From an uncultured Rickettsiales bacterium (lineage in GTDB: Bacteria > Pseudomonadota > Alphaproteobacteria > Rickettsiales > CAYLHV01), in assembly GCA_964383745.1 (NCBI GenBank), contig CAYLHV010000003.1, forward strand, positions 33,590-97,589: a stretch of 64,000 nt of DNA, read 5' to 3'. The position numbers and the translations under genes are program-made. The notes beneath the pieces were generated by a model, which worked only from the letters and a program-made list of their open reading frames with translations, ran no database searches and had not been told where the DNA came from. This document shows positions 937 to 59,810 of this stretch, in pieces (position 1 is the first letter of the stretch; each line of letters starts with the position of its first letter).

Positions 937-1156
937 GCTGCATGAGAAGATCATGCTTCCTCTATTCGTGCAAGTAGTAGATTTTTTCTTAACTAATTGA
1001 TTAATCAGCTAGTTCATGCTTTGCCTGTGATGATGGAGTTGGGAGAGGTGTGGGTTAAGATATGGAGTATTTCAGGATAATATAAAAAATTGTGACTATA
1101 ATACAATCACTTATCTGAAAAATGAGAAAAATGTCTAAAAAATCAAAAAAACGATA

Positions 1157-1185
1157 TTGACATACGAAATAAACAGTGTTATAAT
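1157..1185 (+). promoter_or_regulatory. sigma70-type promoter, TTGACA (1157-1162) - 17 nt - TATAAT (1180-1185)
   Basis: Perfect consensus hexamers with 17-nt spacing, about 68 nt upstream of the ATG at 1254. An almost identical promoter occurs at 57927-57955 upstream of the paralogous ORF. Confidence 0.6.
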
Positions 1186-1253
1186 ATGTTTGTTCTCGAT
1201 AAATTGAACATAATTTATTTTTGAGATATAACTTTTTTTTATGGTAATTTAAA

Positions 1254-1754
1254 ATGACAAAAGAAACAACACAAGAAAACGAAAATACAGGAAGCAACAT
1301 GATTGAAAGCCTTGCTTCAAATTTGATTAAACAAGGGATTTCGAAATTTTTCTCAAATTTCTCACTTTCATCAGTGACAGGAATTTTTTCATCAATATTT
1401 AAAGCAGTACAAGATTTTGTAACAGAAATTGCGTCATTCTTCTCTGATTTAGTAAATAAATTGAGTTTAGGATTTTCGCTTTTTAAAGATAAATTATTTG
1501 GCACAAAGGAAAATTCTGAAGAGAAACCCCTGATGACTGAATTTGCAGATGCGGCAAAAGATCACGCATTAGGAATTGTTACAGATGCTGTAACAGGAAT
1601 GTTTTTCGCAAAACCAGACACTAAATCAACAGAAGCAAGGCCAAGTTGGCTTTGTAACACTCTGAAATCTTTTGGAAAAGCTGCGATAAGTTCTTTTACT
1701 GAAGCTTTTGAAGCAGAAAAAGCAGAAAATAAATCTGCCTCTAGAGGTGCATAA
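1254..1754 (+). CDS. hypothetical protein, paralog of 58026..58637
   Basis: 166-aa ORF behind a consensus promoter. It shares the N-terminal motif FSSIFKxxQxFVTxxASFxSxLxxKxxLGFS and the C-terminal ENKSAS with the 203-aa ORF at 58026. No domain recognised. Confidence 0.6.
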   Translation: MTKETTQENENTGSNMIESLASNLIKQGISKFFSNFSLSSVTGIFSSIFKAVQDFVTEIASFFSDLVNKLSLGFSLFKDKLFGTKENSEEKPLMTEFADAAKDHALGIVTDAVTGMFFAKPDTKSTEARPSWLCNTLKSFGKAAISSFTEAFEAEKAENKSASRGA

Positions 1755-1772
1755 AACACAGTAAAAATGCAG

Positions 1773-1807
1773 GGACGAAGTAATTTAGTAACAGAATTGC
1801 TTCGTCC
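1773..1807. terminator. hairpin between convergent genes (ggacgaagtaatt / aattgcttcgtcc, 9-nt loop), followed by ttcattttt
   Basis: 13-bp stem with one G-U pair, read directly from the sequence. It lies between the stop of 1254..1754 (+) and the stop of 1835..2449 (-). A sequence-related hairpin follows the paralog at 58668-58700. Confidence 0.55.
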
Positions 1808-1834
1808 TTCATTTTTAGAGATGTGAAATATTTC

Positions 1835-2449
1835 TTAGTAACAGTCGAATTGGAATATATAATCAGTATCAAGATATGTCGGATTTTCTGCGTTATCCAG
1901 TGCCTCTATTAATTCATATTTTATTACATTACACTCAGGATTATAATCTAAAATATCATCCCTTAATAGTTTGACCATATCATCAAAATTATTTCCTATA
2001 TTAGCTCCACTGTCTATCAACAAGTTCGCAGCTTCTCTGTGTAGACAAGAAACTGCAAATGTCAATGCGCTACTTCCGTCTGGAGTTTCGATATTAACAT
2101 CAGCTCTGTTTTTTATTAGGATTTCCATGGTTTCGACATCACCTTCAGAAGCAGCATACATTAATGCTGTCATTCCCATCTTCCCTGTGAATGATTCAAT
2201 ACTGCTTTTATGGTGTTTTCTAGCATTAACATCAGCTCCGCGTTTTATCAGAATTTCCACAATTTCTGGATTTTTTGCTAAACTTGCGATCATTAATGGT
2301 GTGTATCCATTGTTGTAGAAATTACTAAAACCCCATGATGATAGATTTTCTATGGATTCCACATGGCCTTTAGCAATGGCTTTAATTAAATCATTACTTG
2401 CGTTTATAGCAGCGGCGTTCACTTGGTTTTCGAACTCAGTCAAATTCAT
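1835..2449 (-). CDS. ankyrin repeat protein (204 aa)
   Basis: ANK consensus elements: GYTPLMIASLAKNPEIVEILIKRGADVNA, GMTALMYAASEGDVETMEILIKNRADVN and GSSALTFAV..LLIDSGANI. Confidence 0.85.
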   Translation of the reverse strand: MNLTEFENQVNAAAINASNDLIKAIAKGHVESIENLSSWGFSNFYNNGYTPLMIASLAKNPEIVEILIKRGADVNARKHHKSSIESFTGKMGMTALMYAASEGDVETMEILIKNRADVNIETPDGSSALTFAVSCLHREAANLLIDSGANIGNNFDDMVKLLRDDILDYNPECNVIKYELIEALDNAENPTYLDTDYIFQFDCY

Positions 2450-2651: not shown

Positions 2652-2966
2652 TTAGCTTTTCTGAATATCTGTGGATTTATTGGGAATGGCGTCAGAATTG
2701 TTATTTTGCTCAACAGAACCAGCTTCTTTGAAAGCATATTCCACTAATTCTGGCAAAGGAACTCCATTAGTTTCAGAAAGATTTTTTAAACTTGTTAAGC
2801 TTTCCATGACATCAGCTGGAACGGTTCCGCCTCTTTCTTTGGAAAGCCATTCTGCCTGAAAGTGAATTGGGTGGTTTTTTGGGTTAGGTTCCCCAACGTA
2901 AATTGTAAAAGGTGCATTTTGTCCGCCAAAATTGCAGATCACATTTAATTTATGGATTATGGCCAT
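2652..2966 (-). CDS. conserved hypothetical protein (resembles the DUF2610-type small proteins of Rickettsia/Legionella)
   Basis: ORF 2652..2981. The internal ATG at 2966 (MAIIHKLNV...) is preceded by AGGAG formed by the upstream ATG context (atgaggagatttaaaATG). The CNFGG..P...YVG.P...HP..FQA.WL..ERGG motif is recalled from a conserved family; this was not checked by search. Confidence 0.5.
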   Translation of the reverse strand: MAIIHKLNVICNFGGQNAPFTIYVGEPNPKNHPIHFQAEWLSKERGGTVPADVMESLTSLKNLSETNGVPLPELVEYAFKEAGSVEQNNNSDAIPNKSTDIQKS

Positions 2967-3069
2967 TTTAAATCTCCTCATTTAAAACTTGTTTATTTCT
3001 ATAATATCAAATATCATACATAATAAAATTATAAAATGAAAACATTAATTTTTAGTTAACTTTAGAAAA

Positions 3070-28600: not shown

Positions 28601-30133
28601 TTATTCTTCTTTAAATGACAATCTCATTGTGTTCAAAATTGGGTCGAGGAGATATTTCATGAAAGTTCTGCTTCCAACCACAATCAACACACTGGCCGGC
28701 ATGCCGGGATATAGATCTATGTTTTTCAATTTTGGGTTTTCTTCAAATTGGTCTTTGTCAATTTCAATTTTTGCCTTATAAAATGATTTATCTTCCGGAT
28801 TTGCAGCATTTGGGTCAGAAATGATGTCAGCTGAAACATGCACCACCACACCTTTAACAGGAGGCACAAATCTTGATCTATATGCGTTTAAATTTGCAAA
28901 AGCCTCAAGTCCAGGATGAACTAAATCAATGTCTTCTGGTTTAATTCTGGCTTCAATCACGAGCTTGTCATCGGTCGGAATGATTTCCATGATTGCTCCA
29001 TTTGGGGGCACAACACCGCCAATTGTGTGAAAATTCATGTTATTAACAATGCCGCTGATTGGGGATTTAATCTCTGTTCTTTCAAGCAAATCTGATGCTT
29101 CATTCATTTTCTCAGTTGTTTCACTCAAATGGAGCTGTGTTTCTTTTAATTCTTGCTCAACCTTGTCAAGCATCTCATTTCTTAAATGAATCATTTCAAC
29201 TTCAGCTGACGCAATCCTCTGATTCGCTTCAGCAATTTTGGCAACAAAGTCACCAATTCTTCCTTGAAGCTCTGCTTGCGAGCTTTCAAGTTGAAGCAAT
29301 CTTGTTCTTTCAGTGTTGCCGCTTGCAAGTAATTTTCTCATCACTCCAACTTGCTCGGTGATTTTATTTAGCTGAACTCCTGCTGAAAATTTTTGCGCAT
29401 TAATCCCTTCAATCTGTTTGTTAAATTGAATGATTTTACGAGCTGTTATGTCTTTTTTTGCCTGGCTCAGTGCGAGTCTTGCATTAAAAATTCTTCTTTG
29501 TCCTTCAAAAATCTTCTCAATTTCAGGTAAAGTTTTTGCAGCTTCGATGAGCTTTTCTCTGAAAATCAGCTCTGTTGCTTCGTCTCTTTCTGCAATTAAC
29601 CTGTCTTCATTAGCCATTAAAGTGTTGATTCTGGAAAAAAGAATCTCTCTATTTACGCTGGCAGAAGTGTCATTTAATCTCATGACCACTTGTCCTGCAG
29701 CGACTTCGGCTCCTTCTTTCACAAGAATTTCTTTAATGACGCCACCTTCTTTATGTTGAATTGTTTTCTTGTTAGAATCAACCACAATTGTGCCGCCTGC
29801 AATGGAGGCTTGATTTAAAGGAGCAACTGCTCCCCAGATTCCAAAAAAACCGAAACAGATGATCAAGACCCAATTTCCAAACACAATTGGTGCACGTGCT
29901 GTGCTGACAACTTCATCAACAGCTTTGTCTGTTTTTCTGTTTGCCATGAAATTAATGAAGCTGTCAAGCTGGGCAAGGGAAGAATTTGCAAAATTCACAA
30001 TTTTGTTGAACCATTTCTTTTGCGCCAGTTTATTTGTTTTCGGCATGGCTTGCATTTCTTTTTTTTGCATCATGCTTCTTCTAACTTTTTCTACCAATTC
30101 TTCGTTATTCAATTCTGGTTTTTTTTCTGACAT
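28601..30133 (-). CDS. HlyD family type I secretion membrane fusion protein (AprE-like)
   Basis: 510 aa with one N-terminal TM helix, a long coiled-coil and a C-terminal barrel with the PGMPA motif. Immediately downstream of the T1SS ABC gene. Confidence 0.9.
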   Translation of the reverse strand: MSEKKPELNNEELVEKVRRSMMQKKEMQAMPKTNKLAQKKWFNKIVNFANSSLAQLDSFINFMANRKTDKAVDEVVSTARAPIVFGNWVLIICFGFFGIWGAVAPLNQASIAGGTIVVDSNKKTIQHKEGGVIKEILVKEGAEVAAGQVVMRLNDTSASVNREILFSRINTLMANEDRLIAERDEATELIFREKLIEAAKTLPEIEKIFEGQRRIFNARLALSQAKKDITARKIIQFNKQIEGINAQKFSAGVQLNKITEQVGVMRKLLASGNTERTRLLQLESSQAELQGRIGDFVAKIAEANQRIASAEVEMIHLRNEMLDKVEQELKETQLHLSETTEKMNEASDLLERTEIKSPISGIVNNMNFHTIGGVVPPNGAIMEIIPTDDKLVIEARIKPEDIDLVHPGLEAFANLNAYRSRFVPPVKGVVVHVSADIISDPNAANPEDKSFYKAKIEIDKDQFEENPKLKNIDLYPGMPASVLIVVGSRTFMKYLLDPILNTMRLSFKEE

Positions 30134-30145
30134 GTTAACGCTCTT

Positions 30146-31867
30146 CTATTGATTTGTTCCTGATATTCTAGCTATGATTTCTTCGCGACTTCCAAAAGCT
30201 GCAATTGAGCCATCTTGCAAAACTAAGATTTTGTCAACGCTTGACAAAATTGAAGTTCGATGAGAAATGATTACTGTTGTGATTTTCTTTTCTTTAGCTT
30301 TCAAAATTGCTTGCACTAAAGCAGCTTCACCAGTTTCGTCTAAATTCGCATTTGGCTCATCAAGAACAACAAATCTTGGATTTCCAAAAAATGCCCTTGC
30401 AAGGCCAATTCTTTGTTTTTGTCCACCAGAAAGAGAGGCGCCTGCCACGCCAATGTCTGTGTCATAGCCATTTGGTAGGCGCAGAATCATGTCATGCGCT
30501 CCTGCAATTTGGGCTGCTTCAACAATGTCTTCCGATGAAGCATCTTGGTTAAGTCTTGCTATATTTTCTTTAATTGTGCCGCTGAAAAGTTCAATTGCTT
30601 GTGGCAGATAGCCAACATATTGGCCAAAATTTTCTCTATTCCAGGAATAAATCTCGGCACCATCAAGCCTTATGCTTCCTGCAGATGGCTTCCAAACGCC
30701 CATCATCAGTTTTGCCATGGAAGATTTTCCTGCTGCGCTTGGTCCAATGATGGCTAGCACATCACCTGCTTCCAGTCCAAAACTCACGCCTTTCACAACA
30801 TGTTTAGGGTTTGTTTGTTCTGCTTGTGTTCTTGGTGGGTGAGCAAAAAACACATTTTCAAAGGTTAAAATTCCTTGAGGAACTGGTAATTTCATGTCTT
30901 GGCTTCTGACAGGTGTGTGGTCAAAGCTTTTTTTCAATCTTTCAAAAGCCACTTTGGAGTCTGTCACGCTTTTCCAAACAGCAATTGCTTGGTCAAAAGG
31001 AGCCAAAGCTCTGCCAACGATGATTGAGCTGGCAATCATGCCCCCGACGGTCATTTCGTTTTTTAAAGTTAGATAGGCCCCAATGCCGGTGACAGCCATT
31101 TGCAAACTCACACGAATGAATTTAGAAATGTTGGAAATCACGCCATTGCGATAGCTTGCGTGGGACTGAAGTTTCATGGATTGTTCGCTGGCTTTATACC
31201 AGTTTTTAACTAAATGTTTCATCATTCCCATTGCTTCAATTGCTTCTGCGTTTCTGTTGGCAATCTCTGCTTGATTCATGCTTTTAATGTTTGACTCAGT
31301 TGCTTTTGACAGTTGATTATTTGTTGAATAGGCATTAAAAACTGCAAAACAAAAAATGATGATTCCACCAAAAATTGTGAGCCAGCCTAAATATGGGTGA
31401 ATCAGGAAAACGACCAGCACATAGATGATTGACCAGGGTGCGTCAAACAGGGTGTTGATTCCAGAGCTTGTTAGAAAGCTTTTAACAGTTGCAAGGTCTC
31501 TGAGTGATTGGCTTCCACCAATTGAAGGTCTCACTGCGGCATTTGCAACTGAATTTGCAAAAAGAATTGGTGTCATTCTTGAATGTAGCCATTCTCCAAT
31601 TTTAATTAGAACAAAGGCCCTCACCACTTGCAGTAAATGCAGGACGATGTAGACGGCAATCATGACTAAGGAAAGCATTAGCAAAGTTTCCAAGCTTCGG
31701 CTTGACAAAACCCTGTCAAGAACTTGGAGGGAGTAGAGGGGTGTGATTAAATTAAGCACATTAACTGCAAAAGCAAACATAAAAGTGATGATGAATGCTT
31801 GTTTACATTTATTCAATGCCTCTGTCAGAGGGTCTATTTTCTTTTTAACTTCTTCTAAATCTTTCAT
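30146..31867 (-). CDS. type I secretion system permease/ATPase (PrtD/AprD family, no C39 domain)
   Basis: 573 aa with an N-terminal 6-TM domain, Walker A GPSAAGKSS, signature LSGGQKQR and Walker B VVLDEP. Confidence 0.9.
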   Translation of the reverse strand: MKDLEEVKKKIDPLTEALNKCKQAFIITFMFAFAVNVLNLITPLYSLQVLDRVLSSRSLETLLMLSLVMIAVYIVLHLLQVVRAFVLIKIGEWLHSRMTPILFANSVANAAVRPSIGGSQSLRDLATVKSFLTSSGINTLFDAPWSIIYVLVVFLIHPYLGWLTIFGGIIIFCFAVFNAYSTNNQLSKATESNIKSMNQAEIANRNAEAIEAMGMMKHLVKNWYKASEQSMKLQSHASYRNGVISNISKFIRVSLQMAVTGIGAYLTLKNEMTVGGMIASSIIVGRALAPFDQAIAVWKSVTDSKVAFERLKKSFDHTPVRSQDMKLPVPQGILTFENVFFAHPPRTQAEQTNPKHVVKGVSFGLEAGDVLAIIGPSAAGKSSMAKLMMGVWKPSAGSIRLDGAEIYSWNRENFGQYVGYLPQAIELFSGTIKENIARLNQDASSEDIVEAAQIAGAHDMILRLPNGYDTDIGVAGASLSGGQKQRIGLARAFFGNPRFVVLDEPNANLDETGEAALVQAILKAKEKKITTVIISHRTSILSSVDKILVLQDGSIAAFGSREEIIARISGTNQ

Positions 31868-32095: not shown

Positions 32096-32551
32096 TTAAT
32101 CTGATTTTAAATTTTTAATTGAGCTTATGACGATTGGAGCTAGTTGAAAAACATTCCATGGGCTCACAATGAAGCTTGCGAGTCGCTGTTTTTGCTCTTC
32201 AAAAAAAGAAAAGATGCTGTTTGTCGGATTGTTTTTTTGTCTTGCAGAGTCTTTGGAATATATTGCTGCAAAAAATAAATCATAATTTTTTTCTTCTAGA
32301 GAAGCTGACCTTTGAGTTCTTTCGATGAATTCTGGATCATTGGTGAAAGATTCGTATAAATTATTTGCATAAAACTCTTCATGATTTTGATTTTCATGCA
32401 TTTTTTCAAAATGAGCTAACATTGCGGCAAGTGCAGAAATTTTATCTTTTTTGATAAATGATCCACATTTTTTCTGAAGTTCTTCGCCTATTAAGAAGGA
32501 CTTGTGTTCAAGCTGATTTTCGTCTAAAAAGTCTAAAGTCATAAAGGTCAC
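32096..32551 (-). CDS. hypothetical protein (151 aa), upstream of the T1SS genes on the same strand
   Basis: ORF only. No motif recognised. Confidence 0.4.
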   Translation of the reverse strand: MTFMTLDFLDENQLEHKSFLIGEELQKKCGSFIKKDKISALAAMLAHFEKMHENQNHEEFYANNLYESFTNDPEFIERTQRSASLEEKNYDLFFAAIYSKDSARQKNNPTNSIFSFFEEQKQRLASFIVSPWNVFQLAPIVISSIKNLKSD

Positions 32552-57790: not shown

Positions 57791-57926
57791 TGATCGAATT
57801 AACTTATGTTGTTGAGTTACAACATTTATTATATTTCAAAATATAAAAATCTCATGTTTTTTACAAGAGGTTATTAACAAAACCTTGAATATTTGCCATG
57901 GATATCTAAAAAATCAAAAAACGATA

Positions 57927-57955
57927 TTGACACAAGAAATAAACAGTGTTATAAT
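57927..57955 (+). promoter_or_regulatory. sigma70-type promoter TTGACA-17-TATAAT (paralog of 1157-1185)
   Basis: Perfect hexamers. The surrounding ~125 nt are about 88% identical by hand alignment to 1135-1259. Confidence 0.6.
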
Positions 57956-58025
57956 ATACCCGTTCTTAATAAACTGAACATTATTTATTTTTTTAAGATA
58001 TAACTTTTTTTAATGGTAATTTAAA

Positions 58026-58637
58026 ATGACTGAAATACAAACAACAAAAGAAAACGAATCTTCAGAAAGCAACATAATGGACGACGGCATTACTCCAGAA
58101 TTGATTGAACAAGCGTTTTTGAGCTTTTCCTCACTATTCTCGAATGTCTCACTTCCATCAGTAAAGGAATTCACGGGAATGTTTTCATCAATATTCAAAG
58201 AGATACAAGGATTTGTAACGGGAGTTGCATCATTTCTCTCTAATTTAATGGATAAAGTGCGTTTAGGATTTTCGATTTGTCAAGAGGAATCATTTGGAAC
58301 AGGCAATTCTGAAGTTGACAAAGATCATCTATTCAAAATTTTTATAGATGAGATGGTAATTGGTGTAATGAATTTTATTTTAGGAGAACAAAAAACTAAA
58401 GTTAAACATAAGGGCATTTTTATGAAGTCTGTAGGCGGTAATTCATACAACGACATGATTGTGGATAATATAGATAAGGCAATATTACTTTCTGCAGGAG
58501 AGGCTATAGCAAAATGTATTTTAGAAGAACGAGAAACTAAAGCAGCAGAAGTGAGTGCCCATGAAAGAATTTTTGAGGAAACTTTGATTCAATCTCGTAA
58601 CCAAGAAAAAACAGAAAATAAATCTGCCTCTCTCTAG
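58026..58637 (+). CDS. hypothetical protein, paralog of 1254..1754
   Basis: 203-aa ORF with a shared N-terminal ~75 aa and a C-terminal ENKSAS. No domain recognised. Confidence 0.6.
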   Translation: MTEIQTTKENESSESNIMDDGITPELIEQAFLSFSSLFSNVSLPSVKEFTGMFSSIFKEIQGFVTGVASFLSNLMDKVRLGFSICQEESFGTGNSEVDKDHLFKIFIDEMVIGVMNFILGEQKTKVKHKGIFMKSVGGNSYNDMIVDNIDKAILLSAGEAIAKCILEERETKAAEVSAHERIFEETLIQSRNQEKTENKSASL

Positions 58638-58667
58638 ATGTATGAATTATTAAAATTGGTGCATGAT

Positions 58668-58700
58668 GGGACGAAGCGATCAAAAGAATTGCTTCGTTCC
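58668..58700 (+). terminator. hairpin acgaagc-N13-gcttcgt, sequence-related to 1773-1807
   Basis: gggacgaagcgatcaaaagaattgcttcgttcc followed by tgtttatt. The T-run is weak. Confidence 0.4.
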
Positions 58701-58904
58701 TGTTTATTCCCGAATATAATATTCCAAGATTTAATATTAAAGCTCCCCCTAAATTTATAAAATGACCCTCACATTTTTCTTGCGTGAGCCTCTTGAAAAA
58801 GAGCAAGACGAGCCTTATTTAGACTGCGTTGCTTGTTCGCTGTTTGGTGAAATTAGTGAGAAAGAGTTTGTTTATATAATTAATCAGGAAATTAGAGGAA
58901 AAAA

Positions 58905-59810
58905 ATGCCCATTAGTGATCAAGAGAAATATGCTATTTTCGAGGCGATTGAGGCTGGGAATGTGGAATATATCAGAAGTTTGAAATATTCAGCGCAAGAG
59001 ATTAATGCTCTTAGAGATGATGAGAATCTTTCGCCATTATTTATCGCGATATATCATGCTGCACCAGATGATGAAAATTTTGAGATTGTGAAAATATTGT
59101 CAGATATATTGAATATTGAAGCAAATATAGCTGGTGAATCTGGAGAAAATCATTCCTATACTGCGCTGACGGCCGCATGTAGACATGGTAAAATTCATAT
59201 TGCGAGGTATTTTTTAGATGAGGGGGCTAATATGTATAGCCCTACAGAAGAGGGTTTTACTCCTTTTTCTAAAGCGCTGCAATCAAAGAGTCTTGAGATG
59301 TGCAAATTATTGATTAAGCGTGGGTTTAATGTGTTAGATAATCATACTTACTATAAAGGCAAAAAAGTTGCAGGAGATCGAACCTATTTACATGATGCGG
59401 TGGAATTTGAATTTCCGAAGGGTGTTGAAATGCTGCTGGAACTTGGTATATCTGCATTAAGTACATTGGCGGCGAATGACAGCAATGCTTTGCACATGGC
59501 AGTGATTAGTGGAAATACAGATATTTGCGAGATGTTGATAAATCATGTGAAGAAGATGGGAGTTTCTGAGAGAGCTTTTGTAAAGATCAAAAATTCTCGT
59601 GGCATGACGGCTTTACATTATGCCTCTCATTCTGGTTCGGTGGAATGTGCTAAAATTTTGATCAAGAATGGTGCTGACATTAATGCTGTTAGCAAATATG
59701 GCACTGTGCTGGAAGATGCGAGAAATGTGCAAAGGGAAGAGAATAGAGATTTAACTGACCTCATAACATATTTCGAACAAGTCGAGAAAGATTTGGCGGA
59801 TGGGAAATGA
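58905..59810 (+). CDS. ankyrin repeat protein (301 aa)
   Basis: ANK elements YTALTAACRHGKIHIARYFLDEGANM, GFTPFSKALQSKSLEMCKLLIKRGFNV and GMTALHYASHSGSVECAKILIKNGADINA. Confidence 0.85.
   Translation: MPISDQEKYAIFEAIEAGNVEYIRSLKYSAQEINALRDDENLSPLFIAIYHAAPDDENFEIVKILSDILNIEANIAGESGENHSYTALTAACRHGKIHIARYFLDEGANMYSPTEEGFTPFSKALQSKSLEMCKLLIKRGFNVLDNHTYYKGKKVAGDRTYLHDAVEFEFPKGVEMLLELGISALSTLAANDSNALHMAVISGNTDICEMLINHVKKMGVSERAFVKIKNSRGMTALHYASHSGSVECAKILIKNGADINAVSKYGTVLEDARNVQREENRDLTDLITYFEQVEKDLADGK

What the first reader, a model, noticed from the sequence alone, without database searches (positions are those of the whole stretch)
1135..1807. Paralogous cassette with conserved promoter, leader and terminator but a divergent coding middle (copy 1 of 2)
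Hand alignment of 1135-1259 with 57906-58031 gives about 88% identity (about 12 mismatches and 3 gap positions over ~125 nt). The aligned stretch covers a consensus TTGACA-17-TATAAT promoter, a ~60-nt AT-rich leader with no obvious Shine-Dalgarno sequence, and the ATG. The encoded proteins (166 and 203 aa) share only the N-terminal ~75 aa (FSSIFKxxQxFVTxxASFxSxLxxKxxLGFS) and differ in sequence and length in the middle. They re-converge in the last 21 nt of the CDS (cagaaaataaatctgcctct, ENKSAS) and in the following hairpin (gggacgaag...attgcttcgt). Non-coding ends that are better conserved than the coding middle are the opposite of neutral decay of a duplicate. This points to selection on the regulatory ends with protein diversification, or to repeated end-directed gene conversion. 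I recognise no domain. Both copies sit next to ankyrin-repeat genes.
Basis: seen in the sequence. Interest (0 to 1): 0.65.

Follow-up and report, generated by a model that had tools for sequence, protein, structure and literature searches.

The report
Orphan gene pair sharing a perfect promoter
Two copies of a small gene found in no other sequenced organism have kept a near-identical, textbook-strength promoter, start region, last six codons and terminator while their protein sequences drifted almost freely; this is a real but fairly ordinary pattern, and the proteins' function is still unknown.

Summary
Two stand-alone transcription units (1135-1810 and 57906-58700) share a promoter-leader with 12 mismatches and 3 gap positions in 126 nt. 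They also share an N-terminal module (43% aa identity over 118 aa), a 20-nt identical block at the 3' end of the CDS, and a terminator hairpin.

I refine it in three ways.
- The excess conservation lies in the promoter: 2 mismatches in 52 nt (p=0.002 against synonymous sites). It also lies in 18 nt around the ATG and in the 3' block. The leader body (15% divergent) is not significantly better kept than synonymous sites (26%).
- The "divergent middle" is not foreign. Patches keep 77% nt identity, and copy 2 carries an in-frame 141-nt internal duplication.
- The coding sequence evolves almost neutrally (dN/dS about 0.7-0.9), yet both frames are clearly kept open.

The two promoters are the only 12/12 TTGACA-17-TGnTATAAT sites in the 64 kb. 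The proteins are acidic, Ser/Phe-rich and predicted all-helical. They have no homologue among about 15 billion proteins and match no Pfam, NCBIfam or PDB entry.

Best reading: an old duplicate pair of a lineage-specific, strongly expressed gene, with purifying selection on its expression signals. A secreted, host-facing role is conjecture.

The parts
1135..1156 (+). Copy 1: A-rich tract upstream of the -35 (UP-element-like), identical in copy 2 apart from a 1-nt change in run length
   Evidence: 0 mismatches in 21 aligned nt, 1 gap. Similarity ends abruptly upstream of 1135.
1157..1185 (+). Copy 1: sigma-70-type promoter TTGACA (1157-1162), 17 nt, TG, TATAAT (1180-1185)
   Evidence: 12/12 consensus with TG before the -10. 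One of only two such sites in the window. 2 mismatches in 29 nt against copy 2.
1186..1253 (+). Copy 1: inferred AU-rich, unstructured leader of about 60 nt. It contains GTTC-N10-GAAC at about +1 and a 3-codon mini-ORF (1241-1252).
   Evidence: Fold z=0.18 and no Rfam match. 10/66 mismatches plus a 2-nt indel. 18 nt around the ATG are identical. The transcription start is inferred, not measured.
1254..1754 (+). Copy 1 CDS: 166 aa, acidic (pI 5.3), Ser/Phe-rich, predicted all-helical. The N-terminal module is about aa 1-84 (nt 1254-1505).
   Evidence: ORF listed. Chance of staying open is 1e-6. No family hit. Amphipathic helix at aa 43-72, muH 0.45-0.58. AF2 gives helices only, pLDDT 44.
1723..1742 (+). 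Copy 1: 20-nt block identical in both copies, encoding ..ENKSAS. It is also a small inverted repeat, CAGA-N7-TCTG.
   Evidence: Two matches in the window against 0.02 expected. 1/28 mismatches, p=0.014 against the CDS.
1771..1809 (+). Copy 1: intrinsic terminator hairpin followed by a T-run, facing the convergent ankyrin gene (1835-2449, minus strand)
   Evidence: 16-pair stem. Fold -35.7 kcal/mol, z=-6.3.
57906..57955 (+). Copy 2: A-rich tract plus promoter TTGACA (57927-57932), 17 nt, TG, TATAAT (57950-57955)
   Evidence: 12/12 consensus with TG. Alignment.
57956..58025 (+). Copy 2: inferred leader
   Evidence: Fold z=0.19. No Rfam match.
58026..58637 (+). Copy 2 CDS: 203 aa, pI 4.75. The N-terminal module is about aa 1-92 (nt 58026-58301).
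   Evidence: ORF listed. Chance of staying open is 3e-8. AF2 gives helices only, pLDDT 45.
58376..58401 (+). Copy 2: first copy of the internally duplicated segment
   Evidence: 23/26 nt identical to 58517-58542 at an offset of 141 nt (47 codons), z=7.3. The protein-level repeat is weak, p=0.03.
58517..58542 (+). Copy 2: second copy of the internally duplicated segment. It lies inside the stretch (58499-58551) that matches copy 1 1583-1635 at 77%.
   Evidence: z=9.7 for the match between the two gene copies.
58612..58631 (+). Copy 2: the identical 20-nt 3' block (..ENKSAS). A CT-repeat indel just after it changes the last residues and the stop.
58668..58700 (+). Copy 2: intrinsic terminator hairpin
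   Evidence: 13-pair stem. Fold z=-3.8. The stem differs from copy 1 only by G-C/G-U type changes, seen directly in the sequence.

Best explanation
These are two paralogous, monocistronic genes of a protein family seen so far only in this uncultured Rickettsiales-like alphaproteobacterium. Each unit runs: A-tract, perfect sigma-70 promoter with an extended -10, an unstructured AU-rich leader of about 60 nt, an ORF, and an intrinsic terminator. The pair descends from one duplicated transcription unit. Since then the coding sequence has changed almost as fast at replacement sites as at silent sites. It has gained in-frame indels, and in copy 2 a 47-codon internal duplication. Purifying selection has held the promoter, the 18 nt around the start codon, the C-terminal ..EKxENKSAS codons and the terminator stem. 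The proteins are small, acidic, Ser/Phe-rich helical proteins whose best-kept part is a Phe-faced amphipathic helix. Shown: the anatomy, the non-uniform divergence, maintenance of both reading frames, the orphan status, and a family size of two. Inferred: that the promoters fire strongly, that selection rather than conversion keeps the ends alike, and that the proteins are abundant. Conjecture (about 30%): they are exported or host- or membrane-facing factors, like the neighbouring ankyrin genes.
For: Anatomy. Unique 12/12 promoters. Segment divergence: promoter 2/52, leader 10/66, CDS N-module 58/252 (synonymous about 14/54), 3' block 1/28, with Fisher p=0.002 for promoter against synonymous sites and p=0.014 for the 3' block against the CDS. 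Identity falls from an identical 18-mer to about 77% within a few bases after the ATG. That places the break at a functional boundary. Coding is real: the ORFs have a 1e-6 and 3e-8 chance of being open, other frames carry 1-21 stops, and all six indels in the N-terminal half are multiples of 3 while the leader indels are 1 and 2 nt. dN/dS is 0.72-0.91 with dS about 0.3. The middle is homologous and carries a duplication. Orphan status: only self-hits in 5.8e9 clusters. An exhaustive HMMER search of 1.84e9 representatives found only the two members plus two weak hits to repetitive proteins. Metagenome scans found nothing. No hit in Pfam, NCBIfam or PADLOC and only a weak, one-copy hit in PHROGs; the only PDB hit is a non-significant one, 4bja, E 0.32. 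No third copy at 80% or more in the source metagenome. Protein features.
Against: With two sequences, selection and gene conversion cannot be formally separated. 52 nt with only 2 changes, including spacer bases that a promoter does not need, is more constraint than RNA polymerase contacts alone explain. That needs either extra bound regulators or a recent short conversion tract. No transcript data exist, so promoter use, the 5' end and expression level are untested. dN/dS near 1 could mean the proteins matter little. The true start could be Met16/Met18: copy 1 has AGGAAG 6 nt upstream of that ATG (sequence).
Confidence: 0.6

Rival explanations
1. Concerted evolution. The ends are alike because short gene-conversion events between the two copies (56.8 kb apart, direct orientation) have re-homogenised the promoter and the 3' end. 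The indel-rich middle can no longer pair, so it escapes.
For: Promoter spacer and upstream A-tract bases with no known polymerase contact are also nearly identical, 2/52. Apparent dS is uneven along the gene: about 0.3 in the N-module, about 1 in the middle as aligned, 0 in the last 9 codons.
Against: The identity break coincides with the start codon rather than an arbitrary point. The leader between the promoter and the start region is 15% diverged, so one tract cannot cover both. The tracts would be only about 20-50 nt, near or below the usual minimum for homologous recombination (established knowledge, not tested). The high 'dS' of the middle is largely an alignment artefact, because local patches there are 77% identical like the N-module.
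Confidence: 0.22
2. Cassette exchange or terminal reassortment. A constant promoter, N-terminal module and 3' end act as a portable frame into which unrelated coding middles are recombined, as in type III effector reassortment or Anaplasma msp2/p44 expression sites.
For: At first sight the ends match and the middle does not. The organism is rich in accessory ankyrin genes.
Against: The middles are homologous: 41/53 and 24/31 nt in-frame matches, z up to 9.7. The extra length of copy 2 is largely explained by an internal 141-nt duplication. There are only two copies, both complete with their own promoter and terminator. No promoterless donor fragments appear in the window, in the source metagenome at 80% or more, or in the protein databases.
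Confidence: 0.05
3. The conserved parts are an RNA-level device. For example, the leader could pair with the conserved 3' block, or there could be a 3'-UTR-derived small RNA or a riboregulator, with the ORF of secondary importance.
For: The 3' block is a small hairpin or inverted repeat (CAGA-N7-TCTG) followed by a strong terminator. dN/dS is near 1.
Against: The leader has no structure above shuffles, z about 0.2. There is no Rfam match. The leader to 3'-block duplex is no better than shuffles, with fractions 0.90 and 0.31. The ORFs and their indel phase are under clear selection.
Confidence: 0.08

Closest known systems
Borrelia burgdorferi Erp (OspE/OspF-related) genes with the 'upstream homology box' (UHB)
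   Same: Paralogous genes share similar promoter sequences (the UHB) while their coding sequences differ (PMC7002432). That the UHB also carries operator sites for regulators is from my own knowledge, not from a paper read here. This is the best functional analogy for 'same switch, different proteins'.
   Different: Erp genes are many, lie on cp32 prophage plasmids and encode lipoproteins with a conserved signal peptide. Here there are two chromosomal copies. There is no signal peptide or lipobox, since the N-terminal 80 residues hold no Cys. No prophage context is seen, and the only PHROG match is a weak hit to one copy.
Terminal reassortment of type III secreted effectors (Stavrinides et al. 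2006, as cited in PMC7406222)
   Same: A promoter and an N-terminal 50-100 residues are shared between proteins that differ further on.
   Different: In reassortment the C-terminal parts are unrelated. Here they are diverged homologues. No injectisome is known for this organism. Only flagellar genes are seen in the window (earlier notes).
Anaplasma msp2/p44 expression sites with donor pseudogenes (Rickettsiales), recalled from established knowledge
   Same: Conserved 5' and 3' ends flank a variable centre in a Rickettsiales-type intracellular bacterium.
   Different: That system has one promoter-bearing expression site and many truncated donors, flanks of hundreds of nt, and outer-membrane proteins with signal peptides. 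None of these features is present here.
Type 1 secretion substrates of Rickettsiales (Ehrlichia TRPs/Ank200, Orientia Anks; PMC3417381, PMC4315096)
   Same: The proteins are acidic, Ser/Glu-rich, lineage-specific and fast-evolving. A PrtD/HlyD type I pair lies at 28601-31867 in the same window. A conserved extreme C-terminus could be part of an uncleaved signal.
   Different: There are no tandem repeats (beyond one internal duplication) and no RTX motifs. LDAVTSIF content of the last 50 aa (58% and 52%) is not above that of the whole proteins (62% and 56%), and KHPMWC is not low (20% and 12%). The only available sequence criterion therefore says nothing.

Membership tests
Any curated protein family (Pfam, NCBIfam, PHROGs, PADLOC, PDB sequences) | Profile match at or above the curated threshold | tested here: not met
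   No Pfam hit below E=0.09. No NCBIfam hit. The best PHROG hit is a tape-measure family at E=8e-4 for copy 1 only, which I regard as a periodic-helix and composition effect. The best PDB hit has E=0.32.
Phasin / PHA-granule proteins (small, abundant amphipathic helical proteins) | Match to the Pfam phasin models, and PHA synthase in the genome | tested here: not met
   No phasin model among Pfam hits at E<=1.
Borrelia UHB/Erp-type family | Conserved upstream promoter region shared by paralogues with divergent CDS | tested here: met
   Promoter 2/52 mismatches against CDS 58/252. This is an analogy of layout only.
Borrelia UHB/Erp-type family | Lipoprotein signal peptide with lipobox; location on a cp32-like prophage | tested here: not met
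   The N-terminus is polar with no hydrophobic h-region or Cys. The chromosomal neighbours are potI, glpX, lon, dut and nrdB.
msp2/p44-type segmental gene-conversion system | One expression site plus multiple promoterless donor copies with conserved flanks | tested here: not met
   Exactly two copies, each with its own promoter, start, stop and terminator.
Terminal reassortment chimeras (T3SS effectors) | Shared N-terminus joined to unrelated C-terminal domains | tested here: not met
   The C-terminal halves retain in-frame 77% nt identity patches and a weak protein match, z about 3.
Type 1 secretion substrates | C-terminal uncleaved signal (LDAVTSIF-rich, KHPMWC-poor), often with RTX repeats; cognate ABC and MFP components present | tested here: inconclusive
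   The T1SS pair is present. The composition criterion is uninformative. No GGxGxD repeats are seen in the sequences. Secretion itself is not testable here.
Sigma-70 promoter with extended -10 and UP-like element | TTGACA, 17 nt, TGnTATAAT, with an A/T tract upstream | tested here: met
   12/12 plus TG in both copies. Promoter activity is not testable with these tools.

The most novel reading that the evidence does not exclude
The perfect promoter, the conserved polar N-terminus with its Phe-faced amphipathic helix, and the invariant C-terminal ..EKxENKSAS together mark a new, lineage-invented class of very abundant exported proteins. These would leave through the nearby type I system or the flagellar export gate and act on host membranes. 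Their near-neutral or positive rate of amino-acid change and the repeat gain in copy 2 would then reflect an arms race with the host.
Probability: 0.12. Interest if true: 0.55.

Novelty: new member of a known kind. Interest (0 to 1): 0.3.

Why it matters
If the promoters are as strong as their sequence suggests, these two orphan proteins may be among the most abundant products of a little-known intracellular alphaproteobacterium. That would make them natural first targets for proteomics, localisation and host-interaction work. The pair is also a clean small example of expression signals under tighter constraint than the protein they drive. Beyond that it is a two-member family of unknown function in a metagenome-assembled genome, and the pattern has well-known precedents.

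Tried and rejected
In their place I used the source metagenome's contigs and the protein databases.
- Promoter pattern in genome contigs: 0 hits.
- Family profile in metagenome contigs: 0 relatives.
- 22-mer of the promoter in metagenome contigs: one hit (L081) in unrelated, higher-GC sequence with a different layout. I treat it as a chance match.
- Synteny with relatives through Lon: the best relative is only 62% identical, so there is no close genome to compare, and tblastn of the family in all 80 loci found nothing.
- Exact-sequence look-up of copy 1: not on record.
- Structure prediction: pLDDT 44-45 for both copies. I therefore did not run a fold search, which would be meaningless on such models.
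- Rfam: only noise.
- Leader structure and leader to 3'-block pairing: no better than shuffles.
- Weak database hits: P0003, P0004 and the PHROG tape-measure family are repetitive helical proteins. I regard these as compositional matches.
- T1SS composition rule: uninformative.
- RNA runs: none listed.
- Adjacent ankyrin genes as part of the duplicated unit: rejected. They have different orientation and only generic ANK similarity.

Full report
**What is there**

Copy 1 spans 1135-1810 and copy 2 spans 57906-58700, both on the + strand and 56.8 kb apart. Each is a complete, stand-alone transcription unit with these parts in order:
- an A-rich tract;
- TTGACA, 17 nt, TG-n-TATAAT;
- about 60 nt of AU-rich leader;
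- an ATG-initiated ORF of 166 aa (1254-1754) or 203 aa (58026-58637);
- a G+C-rich hairpin followed by a T-run.

The hairpins fold far better than shuffled sequence, with z=-6.3 and -3.8. Copy 1 lies between potI and a convergent 204-aa ankyrin gene, followed by a DUF2610 gene, glpX and lon. Copy 2 lies after tRNA-Asp and dut, and before two co-directional ankyrin genes and nrdB.

**Check of the observation**

The copy-1 contig laid on copy 2 gives these figures:

| Stretch of copy 2 | Mismatches / length |
|---|---|
| 57905-58030 | 12 mismatches and 3 gaps in 126 nt |
| 58176-58301 | 26 in 126 nt |
| 58604-58631 | 1 in 28 nt |

The conserved motifs occur exactly twice in the window, against 0.00-0.02 expected. 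The proteins align over 118 residues at 43% identity, E=1e-21.

Both units sit on different contigs with unique flanks in the source metagenome, at about 10.5x and 11.6x. Pieces recur unchanged in other runs, so the repeat is not an assembly artefact. No third copy with 80% or more identity exists in that sample.

**Where the excess conservation really lies**

I split the 5' region into segments:

| Segment | Coordinates | Mismatches / aligned nt |
|---|---|---|
| A-tract | 1135-1156 | 0/21 (1-nt indel) |
| -35 to -10 | 1157-1185 | 2/29 |
| Whole promoter block | 1135-1187 | 2/52 |
| Leader | 1188-1253 | 10/66 (plus a 2-nt indel) |

An 18-nt block around the start codon (ATGGTAATTTAAAATGAC) is identical. 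The N-terminal module of the CDS differs at 58 of 252 nt, with synonymous changes at about 14 of 54 sites.

By Fisher tests, the promoter is better kept than synonymous sites (p=0.002). The 3' block is better kept than the CDS (p=0.014). The leader is not better kept than synonymous sites (p=0.17). So the "conserved leader" is really a conserved promoter plus a conserved translation-initiation region.

The leader has no structure above shuffles (z about 0.2), no Rfam match, and no better-than-random pairing with the 3' block. Absence of a Shine-Dalgarno sequence is unremarkable, since only 23 of 53 long ORFs in the window show one.

The two promoters are the only 12/12 consensus sites on either strand of the 64 kb; shuffles give 0.17.

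**The coding sequence**

The ORFs are real:
- Given their 34% G+C, the chance of 166 and 203 open codons is 1e-6 and 3e-8. The other five frames carry 1-21 stops.
- All six indels in the N-terminal half are multiples of three, whereas the leader indels are 1 and 2 nt.

Yet dN/dS is 0.72-0.91 in the N-terminal module, with dS about 0.3.

The middle is not a foreign insert:
- 1583-1635 matches 58499-58551 at 77%, in frame (z=9.7).
- 1557-1587 matches 58320-58350 at 77%.
- Within copy 2, 58376-58401 matches 58517-58542 at 23/26 nt, at an offset of exactly 141 nt (47 codons; z=7.3).

Copy 2 therefore carries an in-frame internal duplication (or copy 1 lost one unit). This, together with other indels, wrecks global alignments. 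In the 17 codons of the best middle patch that I compared by eye, all 16 nucleotide differences change the amino acid, mostly conservatively (read from the alignment).

After the shared ..ENKSAS codons, a CT-repeat indel shifts copy 2 into an immediate stop.

**The proteins**

Both are acidic (pI 5.3 and 4.75), rich in Ser and Phe, and have no signal peptide, lipobox or clear membrane span. The best-kept stretch (copy 1 aa 43-72) is an amphipathic helix with a Phe-rich face, muH 0.45-0.58.

AlphaFold2 with the two-sequence alignment predicts only helices, at pLDDT 44-45. That is too low for a fold search.

There is no match in Pfam, NCBIfam or PADLOC. The only PDB sequence hit is non-significant (4bja, E 0.32). 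One PHROG tape-measure hit (E=8e-4, copy 1 only) and two weak hits to giant repetitive proteins are best read as periodic-helix composition.

The family has exactly two members in the 5.8-billion-cluster word search and in an exhaustive HMMER pass over 1.84 billion representatives. JGI metagenome contigs add none.

No close relative's genome is available. The best Lon match is 62% identical, among Rickettsiales and other alphaproteobacterial MAGs.

**Interpretation**

I think this is an old duplication of one complete transcription unit of a lineage-specific gene.
- Strong purifying selection holds the promoter, possibly with regulator sites in and around it. A GTTC-N10-GAAC inverted repeat sits at the inferred +1 in both copies.
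- Selection also holds the start region, the C-terminal motif and the terminator stem.
- The protein is only loosely constrained, beyond being translated and keeping helical periodicity.

The identity break falls at the start codon, and a moderately diverged leader lies between two near-identical blocks. Both points argue for selection rather than a single conversion tract. With two sequences, however, short conversion events cannot be excluded, and the near-identity of promoter spacer bases is more than polymerase contacts require.

The cassette-swap idea is rejected by the residual homology of the middle.

A host-facing or exported role is suggested only by indirect points:
- the accessory-island context;
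- the ankyrin neighbours (5 of about 53 ORFs in the window are ankyrin genes, so adjacency is weak evidence);
- a verified PrtD/HlyD type I secretion pair at 28601-31867;
- the fast evolution.

The one published sequence heuristic for T1SS signals is uninformative here.

**Comparison with known systems**

The layout is closest in spirit to the Borrelia Erp "upstream homology box" families (PMC7002432). It is less close to terminal reassortment of type III effectors (cited in PMC7406222) and to Anaplasma msp2/p44 expression sites. It fails the defining features of each: lipoprotein and prophage context, unrelated C-termini, and donor pseudogenes.

**Limits**

No RNA run holds the locus. Transcription start, expression level, start codon and function are all inferred.

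**Verdict**

This is a real, correctly described and statistically supported pattern. The family has only two members, the proteins are orphans, and the phenomenon has clear precedents, so interest is modest.

Noticed in passing
window 1299-1301 and 58077-58079: Both copies have a second in-frame Met (M16 / M18) at nearly but not exactly the same aligned position. Copy 1 has AGGAAG 6 nt upstream of it. The true start might be there, which would lengthen the leader to about 105 nt. The first 15-17 codons show almost only non-synonymous differences (11-12 of 13, depending on the alignment).
   Followed up: partly
window 1192-1209 and 57962-57979: The inverted repeat GTTC-N10-GAAC(A) lies at the inferred transcription start in both copies. 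The half-sites are intact while 3 of the 10 inner bases differ. It is a candidate operator, but the pattern is not statistically significant on its own.
   Followed up: partly
window 1241-1252 and 58013-58024: A three-codon mini-ORF (ATG GTA ATT TAA) ends 1 nt before the main ATG and is identical in both copies.
   Followed up: no
window 58629-58637: A CT-dinucleotide run (CTCTCTCT) right after the conserved ENKSAS codons differs in length from copy 1. It puts copy 2 into an immediate TAG, so slippage there would alter the C-terminal tail.
   Followed up: partly
window 2652-2981 (-): A 109-aa DUF2610 protein (Pfam PF11020, E=8e-32) lies between the ankyrin gene and glpX.
   Followed up: partly
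window 28601-31867 (-): The PrtD-type ABC exporter (TIGR01842, 752 bits) and the HlyD-type adaptor (TIGR01843, 369 bits) are both above their cutoffs, and no RTX substrate gene is adjacent. The upstream 148-aa ORF (32096-32542) matches no NCBIfam model.
   Followed up: partly
window 1055-1504 (-): A long antisense ORF (149 aa) lies opposite copy 1. Copy 2 has only a 62-aa counterpart, so it is probably a by-product of codon composition and not a gene.
   Followed up: partly
window 58762-58983 (+): A 73-aa ORF overlaps the annotated start of the 301-aa ankyrin gene in another frame. The start of that ankyrin gene was not checked.
   Followed up: no
protein P0004 (2429 aa, database hit): A giant protein with many tandem units of about 37 aa (..VDRVRSGFAWFVEQV..) weakly resembles the family's ..DKV(R/S)LGFS.. 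helix (E=5e-4). I judged this compositional.
   Followed up: partly
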